A DNA stretch of 64,000 nucleotides. Source: Candidatus Latescibacterota bacterium (GTDB taxonomy: Bacteria > Latescibacterota > UBA2968 > UBA8231). The notes under the pieces were generated by a model, which ran no database searches, was not told the DNA's origin, and saw only the letters and a program-made list of their open reading frames with translations. The stretch lies in contig OZ241867.1 of assembly GCA_965203175.1 (NCBI GenBank), positions 4,800,001 to 4,864,000 of the forward strand, read 5' to 3'. The position numbers and the translations under genes are program-made. Below are positions 1 through 5,182 of the stretch, piece by piece. Position 1 is the first letter of the stretch; each line of letters opens with the position of its first letter.

Positions 1-61
1 TTGTCGTCCTGTGCAAAAAAGATACTCAACAACTGGCTGGTTTGCTCTTTATCAATCATGG

Positions 62-105
62 TCCAAGGCTTGGACAAGGATGACTAGCGCGCTATCTTGG
101 TCTTT
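62..105 (+). repeat. Left copy of a degenerate direct repeat bracketing the dam-parB-PRTase island; contains a promoter-like TTGGAC-17-TATCTT
   Basis: tccaaggcttggacaaggatgactagcgcgctatcttggtcttt aligns to 3333-3375 (34/44 by hand alignment); 61-75 gtccaag-g-cttggac is a perfect inverted repeat. Confidence 0.6.
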
Positions 106-130
106 CGAAGATAAAAAAGGATAGAATAGT

Positions 131-345
131 ATACGCAAGATCGCTAGCTGCGGAGGCGGCAAAGGCCAAGACAAGCTATCGCGGGAGATCAATTTTCGCT
201 ATTTTTTTACGGGTGCCGATTACGAGGGCTTGCATCTGAGCCGAGGGGGAGACCGGTCGGATGAATTGATGGCGCATATATAGCGAGATTCGCCAACACC
301 TCGATAACGGCTAGTCTCTGCACTACAGTGCTTGGGAGAGGCTTA
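131..345 (+). pseudogene. Possible highly decayed fragment of an SNF2-type helicase (region preceding DUF3883)
   Basis: One frame reads DKLSREINF (170-196) and RSDELMA (254-274), then VSAL..VLG with stops and a frameshift. This resembles, from memory, the DRLTKEINYW...RADEL.AR...ISPLPPVVLG segment of helicases that precede DUF1156 genes. Confidence 0.3.
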
Positions 346-492
346 CGGCGAAACCGTGACGGTGCAGGAACATATCATGAATCAACCGACAGCATGAGCA
401 GCGCGGACAAGCACAACCTTGGCGAGTAAGCGAGGACTATATTCAATTCGGAAGTCTAGCGGACAGGCTGTAGAGCAAGAAAAGGAGAAATC

Positions 493-1293
493 ATGGCGAA
501 GCCGTTCCTTCGTTGGGCAGGCAGCAAGCGTCAGATAGTAAAGAGGCTATCCGAGTATTGGCCCGGAGGAAACACGCGGTATATCGAGCCGTTCGCGGGT
601 TCCGCGTGTCTCTTCTTCGAGTTGGAACCTCGCTCTGCCCTTATCGGAGATATTAACTCTGAACTGATCGAGATGTACGAGGTAGTCCGAGAACGTCCCT
701 ACGATCTTCACGAGTCTTTGAGTCGTTGGAATAACGATCAAAACGAGTACTATCGTGTACGAAGCATGAAATCCTCGATACTAAACAATGTCGATCGAGC
801 AGCTCGTTTCATATATCTCAACAGATTTTGTTTCAATGGTTTATATCGAACCAATGGAAGTGGCCACTTCAATGTGCCTTATGGAGGAGGCAAGTCCGGA
901 TCAATTCCTTCAATAGAAGTATTAAATGAAGCAAGTAGAGTTTTGGCTAATTCTCGATTGATTTCTGGAGACTTTGAAGAAATTTTAAGAGATGCAAAAA
1001 AAAATGATTTTATATATTTAGATCCGCCATTTTCTATGGTAGACAGGAGATCTTTTACCGAATATGCACCTGAATCCTTTAGAGAAAAAGACTTGATTCG
1101 GCTACGAGAGACAATTCACTATCTCGACAAACTTGGTGCTGTATTTCTTTTGAGTTATGCTGACTGTGATGAGGGAAAACGGCTTGCCAAAGGTTTTCCG
1201 ACTTATCGAGTAGAAATCAAAAGAAATATTGCCGGATTTCCTAGCAGCCGAAGATCGGTGACTGAACTCATCGCGACGAATGCCGCTATCTAA
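493..1293 (+). CDS. dam: Dam/D12-class N6-adenine DNA methyltransferase
   Basis: FLRWAGSK, YIEPFAGSA (motif I), NRFCFNGLYRTN..FNVPYG (target recognition region), FIYLDPPF (motif IV); RBS aaggag. Confidence 0.9.
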   Translation: MAKPFLRWAGSKRQIVKRLSEYWPGGNTRYIEPFAGSACLFFELEPRSALIGDINSELIEMYEVVRERPYDLHESLSRWNNDQNEYYRVRSMKSSILNNVDRAARFIYLNRFCFNGLYRTNGSGHFNVPYGGGKSGSIPSIEVLNEASRVLANSRLISGDFEEILRDAKKNDFIYLDPPFSMVDRRSFTEYAPESFREKDLIRLRETIHYLDKLGAVFLLSYADCDEGKRLAKGFPTYRVEIKRNIAGFPSSRRSVTELIATNAAI

Positions 1294-1307
1294 GTGAGGG
1301 AGTTTCA

Positions 1308-2324
1308 ATGAGCGAAGAGAGAAGCAATCATGAAGGTGTCTCAGTGATTCCGAAAGGAGAACTGATTTACCTCGGTGTTGATGAACTCCGCCCAAGTCCG
1401 CACAATCCGCGTAAGCTCTTTGATCCTGAACCGCTTGCAGCACTCAAAAAAAGTATCCAAGAGCATGGAGTACTTGTCCCACTGACTGTCTATTCTCAGC
1501 CTGGTCAGGATATATACGCGATTGTAGACGGAGAGCGCCGTTACAAATGTTGCTCCGACCTCTGCAAGGAAGGAGTCGATATAAGAATTCCAGCAAATGT
1601 TGTCGCTCCTCCCGATCCGATGGCATCCCTAATATATATGTTTAATATCCACCAGTTCCGGCAACAATGGGAACTGATGCCGACTGCACTTGCTCTGAAA
1701 GCTGTTATAGAAGAATTGGAAATAGATGACCAGCAGGAATTGACCGAACTAACTGGACTTAGCGATCCTCAAGTCGAGCGCTGCAAAATTATTCTTTCGT
1801 TTCCTGATCGATATCAAGAGCTGTCAATGGAGCATGATCCACAGGCAAGAATACCATCTAATTTCTGGGTCGAGCTTTATCCTGTATTGGAACTTGTGGA
1901 GAATCTATTACCTGGTCTAATAAAAGAGGAAGGGCGTGACGGAGTTACCGACCGTCTGATCGATAAATATCGTGATAAGCGAATCAAGAGTGTCATTCAT
2001 TTCAGGCGTATACTAGAGGCATATGATGTGCAAGAAAATAAGGAGGGTGTAGAGGTCGTAGCAGACAAATTGAGAGAGTATATTTTGAGCCCGGAGATGG
2101 AGACGCGGGATACATTCGATGGATTCATTCTCGACTCAAGACGAGTCCAGAAAGCTACTCAGGCTGCAGACAGGTTCCTTAATGATCTACAAAAGGCGAA
2201 GATCGATCATGCAATAGATTATAAAGATGAGCTAATTCAAAAACTTATGAATGTACGTCAATTTGTTGATGATCTCTTAGCTAAGCTTGAAGGTGAAGAT
2301 GCACCACAAGAGGAGGATGCTTGA
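1308..2324 (+). CDS. ParB/Srx N-terminal domain protein
   Basis: LRPSPHNPRKLF..LKKSIQEHGVLVPLTV..YAIVDGERR ParB/Srx core, followed by an HTH-like segment ELTELTGLSDPQVER. Confidence 0.85.
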   Translation: MSEERSNHEGVSVIPKGELIYLGVDELRPSPHNPRKLFDPEPLAALKKSIQEHGVLVPLTVYSQPGQDIYAIVDGERRYKCCSDLCKEGVDIRIPANVVAPPDPMASLIYMFNIHQFRQQWELMPTALALKAVIEELEIDDQQELTELTGLSDPQVERCKIILSFPDRYQELSMEHDPQARIPSNFWVELYPVLELVENLLPGLIKEEGRDGVTDRLIDKYRDKRIKSVIHFRRILEAYDVQENKEGVEVVADKLREYILSPEMETRDTFDGFILDSRRVQKATQAADRFLNDLQKAKIDHAIDYKDELIQKLMNVRQFVDDLLAKLEGEDAPQEEDA

Positions 2325-3142
2325 TTCTACTTAGAGCAGTCTCTTATGTCCGAGCAGCTTGGCGACTTCGGAGATACGAACCTAAAAAGGTTACCTTAAG
2401 GAGCTTGATCGAATGGACTCGACAGTTTCCAAAAGACTATCGAACTGATTTAATTCGACTAGTTGCGAACCTAAGGTTTATCTCAGAAAAAGAGACTATA
2501 GGGTACCTTGTTGATTTAAATCAGAAGGTTCTTTGTGCCTTACAAAAAGATGGTATAGATATCCGTAACGTCATATATGTTTCAACCAGCACAGCGGGAA
2601 GTAGCAGTAGTGTTATGTTAAGCCTACTGCGCGATCATGCAAATCTCGAACAACGAGGAGCAACGTTGCTGCACTATGGTGAAGCAATGAAGATTCAGCG
2701 ATATACTAGGAAACTCAAACGTGGTGCAATCGTGTATGTCGATGACTTCGCGGGAACGGGAAAGCAGTTCATTCGATCACGTCGAGACGTAGCAGAATAC
2801 GTTGTCGGTGTATTCTCGGAGTTCTTCTTGCTCCCATGTATCTGTGAAGAGGCACAGTCAAAAATCGAAGCTGCCGGCATAAAACCGCTGAGTGGGTTTA
2901 TTCATAAAAAATCCGAACGTCCGTTTCTTGATAATTGTGCCTTTCTAAAGCCAAAACAGCGCAAAAGACTTTTGATGTTGTCCCACAAGTATTGGAATGA
3001 GAAAATCGCCCTCGGTTTTAGTGGTTTGGCAACCAATGTTGTCTTTTATCGTACCACACCAAATACGACGCCACTAATTTTTCGGGGGAAACGTGGTCAG
3101 GCACCTGTCTTCGGAGTTATTCCTAGGTACGACGACCAGTAG
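2321..3142 (+). CDS. Phosphoribosyltransferase-like protein (PRTase-CE-like)
   Basis: PRPP-binding loop IVYVDDFAGTGKQF; C-terminal GF......VVFY.TTPNTTPLIF; 4-bp overlap with the parB stop. Confidence 0.75.
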   Translation: MILLRAVSYVRAAWRLRRYEPKKVTLRSLIEWTRQFPKDYRTDLIRLVANLRFISEKETIGYLVDLNQKVLCALQKDGIDIRNVIYVSTSTAGSSSSVMLSLLRDHANLEQRGATLLHYGEAMKIQRYTRKLKRGAIVYVDDFAGTGKQFIRSRRDVAEYVVGVFSEFFLLPCICEEAQSKIEAAGIKPLSGFIHKKSERPFLDNCAFLKPKQRKRLLMLSHKYWNEKIALGFSGLATNVVFYRTTPNTTPLIFRGKRGQAPVFGVIPRYDDQ

Positions 3143-3178
3143 ACTTGCCCAGATAATACCACGTAAGTATGCGTTTTT

Positions 3179-3322
3179 AAAGACCTCATCGAAGTCACCC
3201 TGCCACTCGATGCGACCAACGCCATGTTGGCACGAGAGAAGTAGATTCTTCGACACGGACATCCGAGCACGCTGTATCTGTGATGGGCACGGTGGTCGTT
3301 GGATTCTATACGAGCGGCGATT
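3179..3322 (+). pseudogene. N-terminal relic of a DUF1156 adenine DNA methyltransferase
   Basis: [46 protein letters not shown] matches the DUF1156 signature LIEV.[27 protein letters not shown]...RA.I; stops at 3242 and 3281. Confidence 0.85.
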
Positions 3323-3332
3323 TAGGAGTTTT

Positions 3333-3375
3333 TCCAAGGCTTGGGCCAAATAACTGTCGTCCTATCTTGATCTTT
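3333..3375 (+). repeat. Right copy of the degenerate direct repeat; probable promoter of the PhyH operon (TTGGGC-16-TATCTT)
   Basis: tccaaggcttgggccaaataactgtcgtcctatcttgatcttt compared with 62-105. Confidence 0.6.
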
Positions 3376-3447
3376 AGTCGTCCAAAAATCGGCACGTGGA
3401 CAGAGCACTAGGCACCACCAACTCGGCCAACCCAAAGGAGCAAAGAC

Positions 3448-4317
3448 GTGGACAAATACCTCTATACGGTCTCAGAAGAAGAAAAATACTACTTCGACCT
3501 GCGCGGCTACCTAGTCGTCCGCAACGCCCTCACCGCCGAGGAAGTAAGCGAGTGCAACGCCGCCATCGACCACTTCGCCGACCAGATCTCTGCTTATCCC
3601 GGCACCCTCGCCCGCGGCTCAAGCGCGCTGCAAGGCACGACCAGCCGCCAGCAGCTCACCGGCATGCTCGGTTGGCCGTCCCCCTACCGCGAACCCTTTC
3701 GCCGCCTGCTGGTCCATCCCACCATCGTCTCTCGCCTCAACGAATTCAGCGGCCCGGGCTTTCGTCTCGATCACGGCCCCCTACTCATCAGCGCCACTGA
3801 GGGCACCGAAGGGCACTACCTACACGGCGCAGGCGAGCCCTTTAGCCCCGCCACTTGGTATCACCAGCAAAACGGCAAAATCTACTGCCGGGGCATCACC
3901 GTGGCTTGGCAACTGACCGACTGCAACCCCGGCGACGGCGGCTTTGCCGTGATCCCCGGAAGCCACAAAACCTGCGAGCCGACCCCGCCCGAGATCCGCT
4001 CGCTCGCAGAGTACGGAGAATTGGTCGTCCAACCCGCCATGCGCGCCGGCGACGTCCTCTTCTTCGCCGAGACCGCCACCCACGGCACGCTGCCGTGGAA
4101 GGGCAAGACGCAGCGGCGCTCCGTGCTCTACAAATACGCCTCCCGGGGCGCGGCCCGAGCTACGGGCAAATACTTCACTCCACAGGCGCGCTACGGCGCT
4201 TGGATCGACGAACTCACGCCCGAACAACAAGCCGTCCTGTACGGACCAGGCGTCCACCACAAGGACCTGCCCCTGCTGGAATCCGACGGCCAAAAAACTT
4301 GGATTGCGGAGGGCTAA
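3448..4317 (+). CDS. PhyH-family Fe(II)/2OG enzyme with an HxA motif
   Basis: FDLRGYLVVRNAL, LHGAGE, GGFAVIPGSHK, AGDVLFF..THGT; GTG start after aaggag. Confidence 0.85.
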   Translation: MDKYLYTVSEEEKYYFDLRGYLVVRNALTAEEVSECNAAIDHFADQISAYPGTLARGSSALQGTTSRQQLTGMLGWPSPYREPFRRLLVHPTIVSRLNEFSGPGFRLDHGPLLISATEGTEGHYLHGAGEPFSPATWYHQQNGKIYCRGITVAWQLTDCNPGDGGFAVIPGSHKTCEPTPPEIRSLAEYGELVVQPAMRAGDVLFFAETATHGTLPWKGKTQRRSVLYKYASRGAARATGKYFTPQARYGAWIDELTPEQQAVLYGPGVHHKDLPLLESDGQKTWIAEG

Positions 4318-4318
4318 A

Positions 4319-5182
4319 ATGGATGCGCGCGAATGCTATTTCTGGGATCTCACCGGCTATCTGATCGTCCGCAATGTCCTCACCGCCGAGGAATTAAGCG
4401 AATGCAATGCCGCTATCGATCACTGCATGGACCAGATGCAGCAAAGCCCCGACAATGGCGGTGCCCGAGGAGAGTCTAACGCGCTTCAAGGCACTGGCCA
4501 ACAGACCCTCCCCAACCTGCTCGAATTGCCCCATCCCCACTGTGAACCCTTCCGCCGCCTGCTGGTGCATCCCCAAGTCGTCTGCCGCCTCAACGCAATG
4601 TGCGGCAAAGGCTTCCGCCACGACCACGGACCCTGGGTCTCCTACAGTCCCAAGGGAACCGAGGGCCTCATCCTGCACGGGGCGGGCGAACCCCACAGAC
4701 CCTACGTGGCCTACCACCACCAGAACGGCCAGTTCTACTGCGCTGGCGTCACCGTGACCTGGCAGTTAGCCGACTGCAAGGCCGGCGATGGTGGTTTTGC
4801 CTGCGTGCCGGGCAGCCACAAAGCCAAATTCCCCATGCCTGCCGGCGTGCGCTCCTGCGACGAGCCACTGGACGTGGTCCACCAGCCCGCGCTCAAAGCC
4901 GGCGATGTCATCTTCTTTATGGACGGGGCCCAGACCCACGGCACCCTACCCTGGAAAGGCGAAGCGCCGCGCCGCTCTGCACTCTACAAGTACGCGAGCC
5001 GCACGGCCACCCGCTCTGGCGTCTCCATCGAGTTAGCCGAACCGGAAGTCTATTGGGACGAGGCTATCGTAGAGGGTATGACACCCGAGCAACGCGCCGT
5101 CATGTACGGCCCCTGTTCCAGTATCTCCCAGAAGCTACATTTGCAGGTGGAGGCCGACGGCAACGTTGTGCTCGTCAAGTAA
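4319..5182 (+). CDS. PhyH-family Fe(II)/2OG enzyme with an HxA motif (paralogue of the preceding gene)
   Basis: WDLTGYLIVRNVL, LHGAGE, GGFACVPGSHK, THGT; ATG at 4319 directly after the upstream stop. Confidence 0.85.
   Translation: MDARECYFWDLTGYLIVRNVLTAEELSECNAAIDHCMDQMQQSPDNGGARGESNALQGTGQQTLPNLLELPHPHCEPFRRLLVHPQVVCRLNAMCGKGFRHDHGPWVSYSPKGTEGLILHGAGEPHRPYVAYHHQNGQFYCAGVTVTWQLADCKAGDGGFACVPGSHKAKFPMPAGVRSCDEPLDVVHQPALKAGDVIFFMDGAQTHGTLPWKGEAPRRSALYKYASRTATRSGVSIELAEPEVYWDEAIVEGMTPEQRAVMYGPCSSISQKLHLQVEADGNVVLVK

What the first reader, a model, noticed from the sequence alone, without database searches (positions are those of the whole stretch)
493..3142. Candidate undescribed defence system: Dam-type MTase + ParB/Srx protein + PRTase
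Seen in sequence: three intact co-oriented genes, tightly spaced (14-bp gap, then a 4-bp overlap), visibly AT-richer than the surrounding DNA, with no restriction endonuclease, ParA or integrase. Established: ParB/Srx domains bind or hydrolyse nucleotides, and stand-alone PRTase-like proteins act as effectors in conflict systems. Inference: the MTase marks or senses DNA state, the ParB-HTH protein acts as sensor, and the PRTase modifies or depletes nucleotides. I do not recognise this triad as a named system. It has stayed intact while the flanking genes decayed, which suggests selection on it.
Basis: partly seen in the sequence, partly recalled or inferred. Interest (0 to 1): 0.85.

Follow-up and report, generated by a model that had tools for sequence, protein, structure and literature searches.

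The report
Methylase–ParB–PRTase candidate defence cassette
Three tightly linked foreign genes (a DNA adenine methylase, a ParB-type DNA-binding nucleotide switch and a retron-type phosphoribosyltransferase effector) form a widely conserved cassette in a bacterial defence hot spot, and it is probably an undescribed restriction-like immune system that has no nuclease.

Summary
Three intact co-oriented genes lie at 493-1293, 1308-2324 and 2321-3142 (14-nt gap, 4-nt overlap). Their GC is 0.38-0.47, against about 0.6 in the flanks. They encode a Dam/DpnM-class methylase, a ParB/Noc/KorB-like protein and a PRTase-CE protein of the retron type III-A effector family.

The trio is a unit: 46 of 54 loci, from about 12 phyla, keep the same order, and no fourth gene recurs. 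Natural methylase-ParB fusions exist.

In a distant ParB subfamily the ParB-effector pair persists. The methylase changes class or position, and the PRTase is sometimes replaced by another protein.

In this genus the insertion site is a defence hot spot. Congeners carry Hma, GmrSD, Dsr1-like and ApeA-HEPN genes there. The cassette occurs in 2 of 168 genomes of the phylum.

PADLOC and NCBIfam do not name the trio, and no searched paper describes it.

Best reading: a restriction-modification-like abortive-infection or addiction system. The mechanism is inferred. Three earlier notes of this scan reached the same idea for other genomes.

The parts
62..105 (.). Left copy of an imperfect direct repeat of about 44 nt that brackets the inserted DNA
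   Evidence: Local alignment of window 56-115 against 3326-3390 matches 35 of 45 columns. In congener G129 one segment (L071 83-126) aligns to both copies. No shuffle control was run.
106..492 (+). Non-coding leader between the divergent ankyrin gene and the methylase gene; promoter not identified
   Evidence: No ORF of 50 aa or more lies here. Promoter-like and terminator-like sites in 1-3500 are no more frequent than in shuffles. No Rfam match at E<=0.1. DNA homology to the closest relative L003 starts only at 481. No upstream k-mer is shared across 45 loci.
493..1293 (+). Dam/DpnM-class (D12) N6-adenine DNA methyltransferase, 266 aa, with a DPPF motif
   Evidence: PF02086 6.9e-48. TIGR00571 at 229.6 bits, cut-off 114.85. 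Best solved relative is DpnM (methylase 1 of DpnII) at 9.1e-51, then E. coli Dam at 2e-27. It is the only D12 methylase found in the genome.
1308..2324 (+). ParB/Noc/KorB-like protein, 338 aa: nucleotide-binding ParB/Srx domain (about 17-110), helix-turn-helix DNA-binding domain (about 104-240) and a family-specific helical C-terminal part
   Evidence: PF02195 1.1e-12. Model pLDDT 81. Foldseek top hits are ParB-CDP 6sdk, Noc 7nfu and KorB 8qa9, all at E about 1e-9. VIA-align gives KorB Z 10.2 and KorB DNA-binding domain 1r71 Z 6.3. NPR and GERR motifs are invariant in 28 sequences. It is the most conserved of the three genes (mean 52.9% identity over 46 loci).
2321..3142 (+). PRTase-CE phosphoribosyltransferase-like protein, 273 aa, of the retron type III-A effector family; candidate effector
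   Evidence: PF24390 1.5e-24. PADLOC PRTase_III-A 6.2e-20. Model pLDDT 94.8. Fold matches orotate and hypoxanthine-guanine PRTases at E about 1e-4. The PRPP-loop residues D141, D142 and G147, plus S94, S95 and R104, are invariant in 38 sequences. It is the only PRTase-CE in the genome.
3179..3322 (+). Remnant of the 5' end of an HmaB-type (DUF1156) methylase gene with two in-frame stops
   Evidence: tblastn with the intact HmaB of congener G130 gives 33 of 48 identities at E 5e-15, with two stops (translation). Part of this remnant also follows the cassette in L003.
3333..3375 (.). Right copy of the imperfect direct repeat
   Evidence: as for the left copy.

Best explanation
The cassette is a horizontally acquired, self-contained, methylation-linked conflict system. 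It works either as anti-phage or anti-plasmid defence, or equally as a selfish addiction module. Its logic is that of a restriction-modification system, but a ParB-effector pair stands where the nuclease would be.

Shown by the calls:
- The three genes form a conserved unit.
- The methylase is Dam/DpnM-class.
- The middle protein has the fold and two of the three nucleotide-binding motifs of CTP-dependent ParB clamps, plus a DNA-binding helix-turn-helix.
- The third protein is a PRTase of the retron type III-A effector family with its PRPP-binding residues intact.
- The site is a defence hot spot.

Inferred mechanism:
1. The methylase marks the cell's own DNA, probably at GATC.
2. The ParB-like protein reads DNA through its helix-turn-helix. 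It closes as a nucleotide-gated (probably CTP-gated) clamp on DNA that lacks the mark.
3. The clamp, probably in direct contact with the PRTase, switches the enzyme on.
4. The PRTase consumes PRPP or otherwise disturbs nucleotide pools, as reported for Retron-Eco11. Replication of the invader and the cell then stops (abortive infection).
5. Loss of the cassette would have the same effect through dilution of the mark.
For: UNIT. 46 of 54 genome loci anchored on the ParB protein have methylase, ParB and PRTase adjacent and co-oriented. The 8 exceptions are three contig ends (L027, L050, L052), four decayed copies (L049, L053, L054, L056) and one locus without a methylase (L017). By my reading of the record titles the loci span about 12 phyla. 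After the three genes, no ORF cluster occurs in more than 3 loci. Gaps are mostly -4 to +19 nt. Identities of the three proteins co-vary (Spearman 0.41-0.56, n=46).

FUSION. P0241 (608 aa, 10 member sequences) is a full methylase, a 17-residue linker and a full ParB protein. P0161 (500 aa) carries both domains.

METHYLATION IS INTEGRAL WHATEVER THE ENZYME. This comes from 80 metagenome loci of a distant ParB subfamily (30-43% identity).
- 26 loci have room on both sides, and 24 of them have a methyltransferase within three genes.
- The 24 comprise 16 D12, 4 beta-class CcrM/DpnA-like (4.1e-61) and 4 weaker methylase-like proteins.
- The methylase sits before, after or opposite the ParB-effector pair.
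- In 4 loci a DpnII-family restriction endonuclease lies between the methylase and ParB.

EFFECTOR MODULARITY. Of 62 loci with room downstream, the next gene is PRTase-CE-like in 50, a 282-286 aa protein 'X' in 8 and something else in 4.

EFFECTOR PRECEDENT. PRTase-CE families mark type III-A retrons (PMC13712802, passages). The Retron-Eco11 PRTase causes abortive infection with PRPP depletion (PMC12746101, abstract and section 30). ShosT is a PRTase toxin (PMC11961720, abstract in the listing).

DEFENCE CONTEXT.
- In five congeners the same site, between conserved PhyH genes, holds different cargo. Two hold only the ankyrin gene. The others hold GmrSD/HEC-06, complete HmaABC, a Dsr1-like SIR2 protein, ApeA-HEPN and a PIN protein.
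- In this genome the site also holds a PD-T4-4_A-like ATPase (5.9e-37).
- One IMG/VR contig carries the trio between a phage lysozyme and a tyrosine integrase.

SPORADIC DISTRIBUTION. 2 of 168 genomes of the phylum have the cassette, 0 of 30 in the genus. Its GC is about 0.43 in a genome of about 0.6.

CONTACT (weak). The ParB + PRTase complex prediction scored 0.50 (median of 3 runs) against 0.00 for the best of 3 controls. The mark was reached by 58 of 80 solved complexes and 2 of 110 mismatched pairs. At 0.60 or under it was reached by only 7 of those 80 and by both mismatches that passed. The runs agree in at least 89% of contacts and the partner's pLDDT is at least 86. I used my own alignments, so the counts hold only roughly.
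Against: - There is no phenotype, no methylome and no expression data.
- The flanks of the 54 genome loci are mixed. Among 181 flanking ORFs the commonest families include ResIII (4), AAA_21 (2), resolvase (2), Mrr_cat, RE_endonuc, HNH_2 and AAA_15. They also include plainly housekeeping enzymes such as alpha-amylase, ribonucleotide reductase, exonuclease VII and aminotransferase. I ran no background control.
- L017 has ParB + PRTase with no D12 methylase hit (tblastn) in the 6 kb upstream; the two nearest upstream ORFs are not methylases (Pfam). Two of 26 distant loci also lack a nearby methylase.
- The third ParB nucleotide motif differs: canonical ENLQRE reads FNIHQFR here. In 2 of the 3 distinct printed alignments the catalytic Glu aligns with the invariant F112. 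The protein may therefore bind but not hydrolyse CTP, or use another nucleotide.
- No conserved loading site was found upstream.
- GATC is not avoided in the cassettes. It is seen 709 times against 452 expected under a mononucleotide model only.
- GATC specificity is inferred from similarity to DpnM and Dam alone.
- The direction of the switch is open. Sensing unmethylated DNA and release from methylated DNA fit the data equally.
Confidence: 0.6

Rival explanations
1. Chromosome-state sensor. The methylase creates the binding or loading sites. The ParB protein sits on methylated host DNA and holds the PRTase inactive. Phage-induced degradation of host DNA, or a flood of unmarked DNA, frees or re-partitions the complex and the PRTase kills the cell. 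This is still defence, but the switch runs in the opposite direction.
For: The same comparative evidence as for the main reading. Methylase-ParB fusions fit a protein that acts where it marks. There is precedent for a nucleoid protein acting as an infection sensor that activates varied effectors (PANGU preprint 10.64898/2026.04.06.716658, abstract in the listing and passages). Decayed copies keep the ParB C-terminal part next to an intact-looking PRTase (L049, L054).
Against: A sequence-specific helix-turn-helix would not need a dedicated methylase just to find host DNA. Adjacency to DpnII-family endonucleases, which by established knowledge of that family cut unmethylated GATC, fits non-self sensing better. 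Nothing tested here tells the two directions apart.
Confidence: 0.15
2. Mainly a selfish addiction module. The trio stabilises itself or the island it rides on by killing cells that lose the methylase, and gives little phage protection.
For: The cassette is small, self-contained and sporadically distributed: 2 of 168 genomes, low GC and variable flanks. Restriction-modification systems are known to behave this way (established knowledge).
Against: The mechanism is the same as in the main reading, so this differs in selective benefit and not in how the system works. The hot spot cargo in congeners is anti-phage systems, and one copy sits in a prophage accessory position.
Confidence: 0.12
3. DNA hypermodification system. 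The PRTase-like enzyme acts on DNA (base exchange or ribosyl-phosphate transfer), helped by the ParB-like NTPase in the way DpdB helps DpdA. The adenine methylase supplies a second mark or a substrate.
For: [quoted passage not shown] PRTases make and break N-glycosidic bonds at C1' (PMC5512222, section 24 passage).
Against: The PRTase is closest to retron effectors, for which PRPP depletion is reported. No base-synthesis genes accompany the trio. In 8 of 62 distant loci the PRTase is replaced by an unrelated protein with a nuclease-fold lead, which suits an effector slot better than a modification enzyme. The ParB protein has no PADLOC hit to DpdB, DndB or SspE models at E<=0.1.
Confidence: 0.08
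4. Ordinary neighbours: an orphan Dam methylase, a ParB-type regulator or partition protein and a nucleotide-salvage PRTase with no joint function.
For: Each family has housekeeping members. Sources name the ParB protein a 'partition protein'.
Against: Order and adjacency are kept in 46 of 54 loci across phyla with varying flanks, and fusions exist. No ParA is present. The cassette is absent from 30 of 30 congeners. The PRTase matches no salvage-enzyme model above cut-off.
Confidence: 0.03

Closest known systems
Type III-A retrons (for example Retron-Eco11): reverse transcriptase + msDNA + PRTase-like effector
   Same: Both use the same effector family. The match is to PADLOC PRTase_III-A at 6.2e-20, aligned over residues 27-255, and to Pfam PRTase-CE. 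In both, a nucleic-acid-bound partner is proposed to control a PRPP-consuming toxin.
   Different: There is no reverse transcriptase, and no ncRNA was detected. The partner here is a ParB-type DNA-binding nucleotide switch plus a DNA methylase.
Type II restriction-modification of the DpnII kind (DpnM / DpnA / R.DpnII)
   Same: The methylase is closest to DpnM among solved structures (9.1e-51). The cassette is compact and mobile. In 4 distant loci the ParB-PRTase pair sits directly after a DpnA/CcrM-like methylase and a DpnII-family endonuclease.
   Different: The trio itself encodes no endonuclease. The slot is taken by ParB + PRTase.
Methylation-based defence systems whose restriction step is not a classical type II endonuclease (BREX, DISARM; and Hma, which sits at this very site in congeners)
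   Same: A methylase is coupled to non-classical partners, in a defence-island location. The PANGU preprint's introduction describes BREX and DISARM as RM-like systems that rely on host DNA methylation to tell phage DNA apart; their lack of a classical nuclease is my own knowledge.
   Different: The parts are unrelated and far fewer (three genes, 2.65 kb). The output is a metabolic enzyme, not a helicase, ATPase or phosphatase machine.
ParB-superfamily NTPases in DNA-modification defence (DpdB, DndB, SspE, GmrS)
   Same: A ParB/Srx nucleotide-binding domain works beside a DNA-modifying enzyme in a conflict system (PMC10164549 passages; PMC5512222 section 15).
   Different: This protein is of the classical ParB/Noc/KorB type, with GERR and a helix-turn-helix, and not the DGQQR/DUF262 type. 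It matches none of the PADLOC models for those proteins at E<=0.1.
CTP-dependent DNA clamps ParB, Noc and KorB
   Same: They share the fold of the N-terminal and DNA-binding domains, and the NPR and GERR motifs.
   Different: There is no ParA or KorA partner. The third motif is changed to FNIHQFR. The C-terminal helical part is family-specific and has no clear match. No full-length relative was found on 72,556 plasmids or 50,697 phage records.

Membership tests
Dam family DNA adenine methyltransferase (TIGR00571 / Pfam PF02086 D12 class) | Score above the curated cut-off over the full model; DPPF/Y catalytic motif | tested here: met
   229.6 bits against a cut-off of 114.85, model positions 2-267 of 267. 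PF02086 at 164 bits against 22. DPPF is present in the translation.
Dam family DNA adenine methyltransferase (TIGR00571 / Pfam PF02086 D12 class) | GATC target specificity | not testable with these tools
   The only indication is similarity to GATC-specific DpnM (9.1e-51) and E. coli Dam (2e-27). Their specificity is recalled knowledge.
ParB/Noc/KorB CTP-dependent clamps | ParB N-domain fold followed by a helix-turn-helix DNA-binding domain | tested here: met
   Foldseek hits 6sdk, 7nfu and 8qa9 at E about 1e-9. VIA-align gives KorB Z 10.2 and 1r71 Z 6.3. The HMM alignment to solved ParB and Noc covers profile positions 5-182.
ParB/Noc/KorB CTP-dependent clamps | Nucleotide-binding motifs NPR and GERRxRA | tested here: met
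   N33, P34, R35, G75, E76, R77 and R78 are invariant in 28 sequences. The final Ala position is Cys.
ParB/Noc/KorB CTP-dependent clamps | ENLQRE motif with the catalytic Glu | tested here: not met
   The motif reads FNIHQFR. The Glu aligns with F112 in 2 of the 3 distinct printed alignments and with N113 in the third. F112 and N113 are invariant. The role of the Glu in hydrolysis is recalled knowledge.
ParABS partition system | Adjacent ParA ATPase | tested here: not met
   No ParA-like ORF is in the cassette or among the neighbours I annotated. No recurrent fourth gene appears in 54 loci.
Retron type III-A | PRTase-CE / PRTase_III-A effector | tested here: met
   PF24390 1.5e-24; PDLC02935 6.2e-20.
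Retron type III-A | Retron reverse transcriptase next to the effector | tested here: not met
   No further conserved gene in 54 loci. No reverse-transcriptase family appears among the 25 commonest Pfam families of either flank set. This genome's neighbours are an ATPase, an ankyrin protein and PhyH genes.
Retron type III-A | msr/msd non-coding RNA | tested here: inconclusive
   No Rfam match at E<=0.1 in window 1-3500. Rfam may not model every retron RNA.
Type II restriction-modification system | Cognate restriction endonuclease | tested here: not met
   None of the three proteins matches a nuclease family. A DpnII-family endonuclease is present in only 4 distant loci.
Named PRTase toxin systems and candidates (ShosTA, PsyrTA, DS-32) | Match to the system's models at or near cut-off | tested here: not met
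   PADLOC lists only PRTase_III-A models and one chance-level PDC hit for the PRTase at E<=0.1. NCBIfam DS32_1 scores 24.3 bits against a cut-off of 250.
Dpd / Dnd / Ssp modification-restriction systems | ParB-superfamily protein matching DpdB, DndB or SspE, plus the cognate modification genes | tested here: not met
   The ParB protein has no PADLOC hit to these models at E<=0.1. No such genes recur in the flanks.

The most novel reading that the evidence does not exclude
This is a nuclease-free restriction system. A nucleotide-gated ParB clamp reads the adenine-methylation state of DNA and turns 'unmarked DNA present' into metabolic shutdown, by switching on a PRPP-consuming phosphoribosyltransferase. 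The ParB-effector core is modular: the effector is either the PRTase or an unrelated 282-286 aa protein with a nuclease-fold lead. At least two unrelated methylase classes serve it. This would make it a new family of methylation-guided immune systems, and the first immune role for the classical ParB-CTPase clamp.
Probability: 0.35. Interest if true: 0.85.

Novelty: new variant of a known kind. Interest (0 to 1): 0.72.

Why it matters
If the reading is right, self/non-self discrimination by DNA methylation can be coupled to a metabolic effector instead of a nuclease. The coupling would run through a protein family known so far for chromosome segregation, nucleoid occlusion and plasmid gene silencing.

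That would widen what counts as 'restriction'. It would give the retron-type PRTase effector a second, simpler sensor to study. It would also add a CTP-switch protein to the list of immune sensors.

The system is only 2.65 kb and three genes. It is present in a cultured isolate (Paracidobacterium acidisoli 4G-K13, locus L032), so it can be tested directly.

It is common enough to matter. 157 clusters at 50% identity match the ParB profile at E<=1e-30, and 532 metagenome stretches encode relatives of the distant subfamily.

Tried and rejected
- Earlier notes of this scan: nothing near this place or for this protein sequence. A word search then found three notes on the same trio in other genomes.
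- PHROGs: no family for the PRTase, and only generic ParB and methylase families for the other two.
- Plasmids and phages: only N-terminal ParB similarity at 32.5% identity or less for matches over 40% or more of the query. No record covers 80% of the protein, among 64 matching plasmid records and 15 matching phage records.
- tRNA genes at the island edges: none in 18.5 kb.
- Promoter and terminator scan: no more sites than in shuffles.
- Rfam: no match.
- A shared upstream motif or loading site: none in 45 loci.
- GATC sites recur at ParB codons 175-178, but these coincide with a conserved Asp-Pro pair. I do not count them as a signal.
- ESM Atlas on the ParB C-terminal part: best scores 0.83-0.84, below the level of a lead.
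- PDB sequence search for protein X: no hit at E<=1.
- VIA-align gave no clear match for ParB residues beyond about 240. All rows there are helical bundles with Z under 8, which shows neither novelty nor a fold.
- Sequencing runs: no RNA holder listed. I did not lay reads.
- The first alignment of distant ParB relatives was too divergent for the locus scan (error). A narrower one worked.
- I considered whether the neighbouring PD-T4-4-like ATPase pair belongs to the system, because L003 also has it next to the trio. I rejected this: it recurs in only 2 loci and lies on the other side of the ankyrin gene here.


Full report
WHAT IS THERE. One search confirms three intact, co-oriented ORFs at 493-1293 (266 aa), 1308-2324 (338 aa) and 2321-3142 (273 aa, TTG start), with a 14-nt gap and a 4-nt overlap. 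GC is 0.38-0.47 across them and 0.58-0.66 downstream. Upstream lies about 4.5 kb of intermediate GC (0.48-0.57), then about 0.6. The window is G000:C1:4800001-4864000 of a single-contig genome of 6.58 Mb.

THE THREE PROTEINS: METHYLASE AND ParB.
- Gene 1 is a Dam-family D12 adenine methylase. It matches PF02086 at 6.9e-48 and TIGR00571 at 229.6 bits (cut-off 114.85). Its closest solved relative is DpnM at 9.1e-51, followed by E. coli Dam at 2e-27. It is the only D12 methylase in the genome.
- Gene 2 carries a ParB N-domain (PF02195, 1.1e-12). Its model (pLDDT 81) matches CTP-binding ParB, Noc and KorB over the nucleotide-binding and helix-turn-helix domains. The last 100 residues or so are helical with no clear match.
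- In gene 2 the NPR and GERR motifs are invariant in 28 homologues. The third ParB motif (canonical ENLQRE) reads FNIHQFR. In 2 of the 3 distinct printed alignments the catalytic Glu aligns with the invariant F112. I infer a nucleotide-binding switch whose hydrolysis may be slow or absent.

THE THREE PROTEINS: PRTase.
- Gene 3 is a PRTase-CE protein (PF24390, 1.5e-24). PADLOC matches it to the effector of type III-A retrons (PRTase_III-A, 6.2e-20).
- Its model is confident (pLDDT 94.8). It has a PRTase core resembling orotate and hypoxanthine-guanine PRTases (E about 1e-4) behind a helical N-terminal part.
- The PRPP-loop residues D141, D142 and G147 are invariant in 38 sequences, as are S94, S95 and R104. 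The enzyme therefore looks active.

IS THE TRIO A UNIT? A profile of the ParB protein found 54 loci in one-genome-per-species contigs. By their titles they come from about 12 phyla, mostly Acidobacteriota, and include one cultured isolate.
- In 46 of 54 loci the methylase, ParB and PRTase genes are adjacent and co-oriented.
- The other eight are three contig ends (L027, L050, L052), four decayed copies (L049, L053, L054, L056) and one locus (L017) with ParB + PRTase but no D12 methylase upstream (nearest two upstream ORFs by Pfam).
- Clustering of all ORFs in these loci shows no fourth recurrent gene. The next cluster occurs in 3 loci.
- Intergenic distances are mostly -4 to +19 nt.
- Natural fusions exist. 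P0241 is a full methylase, a 17-residue linker and a full ParB protein, with 10 member sequences.
- The ParB gene is the most conserved of the three: mean identity 52.9%, against 48.6% for the methylase and 43.0% for the PRTase.

A WIDER FAMILY SHOWS WHICH PARTS ARE ESSENTIAL. The ParB profile matches 157 clusters (50% identity) at E<=1e-30. From the more distant full-length ones (30-43% identical to ours) I fetched 80 metagenome loci. I labelled their ORFs with HMMs built from my alignments.
- Of 62 loci with room downstream of ParB, the next gene is PRTase-CE-like in 50. It is a 282-286 aa protein 'X' in 8 and something else in 4.
- X has only leads to PD-(D/E)XK nuclease families: AHJR-like by features at 0.85-0.87, and CoiA_nuc by structure. 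It has no PDB sequence hit.
- Of 26 loci with room on both sides, 24 have a methyltransferase within three genes. These are D12 in 16, beta-class CcrM/DpnA-like in 4 (4.1e-61), and weaker methylase-like proteins in 4.
- The methylase may lie before, after or opposite the ParB-effector pair. In 4 loci a DpnII-family restriction endonuclease lies between a beta-class methylase and ParB.
- So the ParB-effector pair is the core. A DNA methylase of whatever class goes with it, and the effector can be exchanged. That is the pattern of modular immune systems, and it ties the core to adenine methylation of the DpnII/GATC kind.

CONTEXT IN THIS GENOME. The trio lies in a variable site between conserved PhyH genes.
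- In five complete congeners the same site holds different cargo. Two (G129, G135) hold only an ankyrin gene. G134 holds a GmrSD/HEC-06 restriction enzyme, a PIN protein, an ATPase fragment and part of HmaA. G130 holds GmrSD, HmaA/B/C, a Dsr1-like SIR2 protein and ApeA-HEPN. G136 holds HmaA/B/C.
- Here the site holds a PD-T4-4_A-like ATPase with a small partner, the ankyrin gene and the trio.
- Directly after the PRTase gene lies a 48-codon remnant of an HmaB gene with two stops. Part of it also follows the trio in the closest relative L003, whose DNA is 80.6% identical from window 481 to 3246.
- An imperfect repeat of about 44 nt (62-105 and 3333-3375) brackets the insertion and is single in G129.
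- The trio is found in 2 of 168 genomes of the phylum and 0 of 30 of the genus.
- No full-length relative is on PLSDB plasmids or GenBank phages.
- IMG/VR holds two loci. L058 carries the trio between a phage lysozyme and a tyrosine integrase, a usual place for prophage accessory defence genes.
- Flanks of the 54 genome loci are mixed, holding both defence or mobile genes and housekeeping genes. I ran no background control, so I claim no enrichment from them.

HOW IT PROBABLY WORKS. The only experimentally studied relatives of the effector are retron PRTases. Retron-Eco11 causes abortive infection with PRPP depletion when triggered (PMC12746101, abstract and section 30). A preprint states that defence PRTases of retrons, ShosTA and PsyrTA form one clade (10.1101/2025.09.30.679545, passages).

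By analogy, and by the restriction-modification-like linkage to a methylase, I propose three steps. The methylase marks self DNA. The ParB-like switch detects DNA in the wrong methylation state and closes on it. It then activates the PRTase, which drains PRPP or nucleotides.

A complex prediction gives weak support for ParB-PRTase contact. The score was 0.50 against 0.00 for the best of 3 controls. The mark was reached by 58 of 80 solved complexes and 2 of 110 mismatched pairs. At 0.60 or under it was reached by only 7 of those 80 and by both passing mismatches. The runs agree in at least 89% of contacts and the partner's pLDDT is at least 86. My own alignments were used.

The direction of the switch, the nucleotide used, the target motif and the chemistry of the PRTase are all inferred. 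The rivals are a chromosome-state sensor, a pure addiction module and a DNA hypermodification system on the DpdA/DpdB pattern. Each is listed with the test that would separate it from the main reading.

IS IT KNOWN? PADLOC-DB 2.0.0 has no model that matches the ParB protein. NCBIfam 20.0 names none of the three as part of a system. Six full-text searches found no description of the trio. The only relevant paper holding both 'ParB' and 'PRTase' treats them as separate domains of phage polyvalent proteins (PMC5512222, sections 15 and 24). Subscription journals and supplementary tables were not searchable, so a listing among unnamed candidates cannot be excluded.

Three earlier notes of this scan describe the same trio in other genomes and reach the same reading. 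They are not independent evidence. I confirmed the synteny claim with my own searches and added the following:
- the hot-spot comparison with congeners;
- the prophage copy;
- the methylase-class and effector swaps in the distant subfamily;
- the DpnII link;
- the changed third ParB motif.

VERDICT. I rate it a new variant of a known kind: a restriction-modification-like or abortive-infection system built from known modules in an undescribed combination.

Noticed in passing
L002:10693-12689 (G000:C1:4795693-4797689, upstream of the window): An AAA_15/AAA_21 ATPase of 506 aa matches PADLOC PD-T4-4_A at 5.9e-37. A 159-aa partner overlaps it by 4 nt and has a weak PDC-M47B match. The pair is inserted relative to congener G129. 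A homologous ATPase lies beside the trio in L003.
   Followed up: partly
L002:12750-14927 (minus strand; ends 74 nt before window position 1): A 725-aa protein made almost wholly of ankyrin repeats (99-nt DNA period) sits in the middle of the hot spot. It is conserved in congeners G129 and G135 and matches PADLOC PDC-M72A at 1.8e-135.
   Followed up: partly
L002:12682-12732 and window 3185-3210: A segment of about 50 nt after the small ATPase partner recurs at 83-98% identity between cargo modules of the same hot spot in G134 (twice), G130 and G136. In G130 and G136 its copy overlaps by 26-32 nt the stretch that matches the HmaB-remnant region of the window. It may be a module junction or recombination sequence.
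   Followed up: no
window 3448-5182 and L002:8784-10480: Tandem paralogous PhyH (phytanoyl-CoA dioxygenase family) genes flank the hot spot on both sides.
   Followed up: no
window 493-3142 and the cassettes of 45 other loci: GATC is more frequent in the cassettes than base composition predicts: 21 against 9.9 here, and 709 against 452 overall. The model was mononucleotide only. The most recurrent sites coincide with a conserved Asp-Pro pair in ParB.
   Followed up: partly
L104:1450-2307 and 7 similar ORFs (L106, L112, L115, L116, L122, L130, L144): A protein family 'X' of 282-286 aa takes the PRTase's place after distant ParB relatives, usually followed by a D12 methylase. It has only nuclease-fold leads, no PDB sequence hit, and no Pfam family common in its nearest ESM Atlas clusters.
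   Followed up: partly
ParB protein residues 81, 82 and 159 (window 1548-1553 and 1782-1784): Cys81 and Cys82, directly after the GERR motif, and Cys159 are invariant in 28 homologues. Canonical ParB has Ala-Ala after the motif. A redox or metal role is possible but untested.
   Followed up: no
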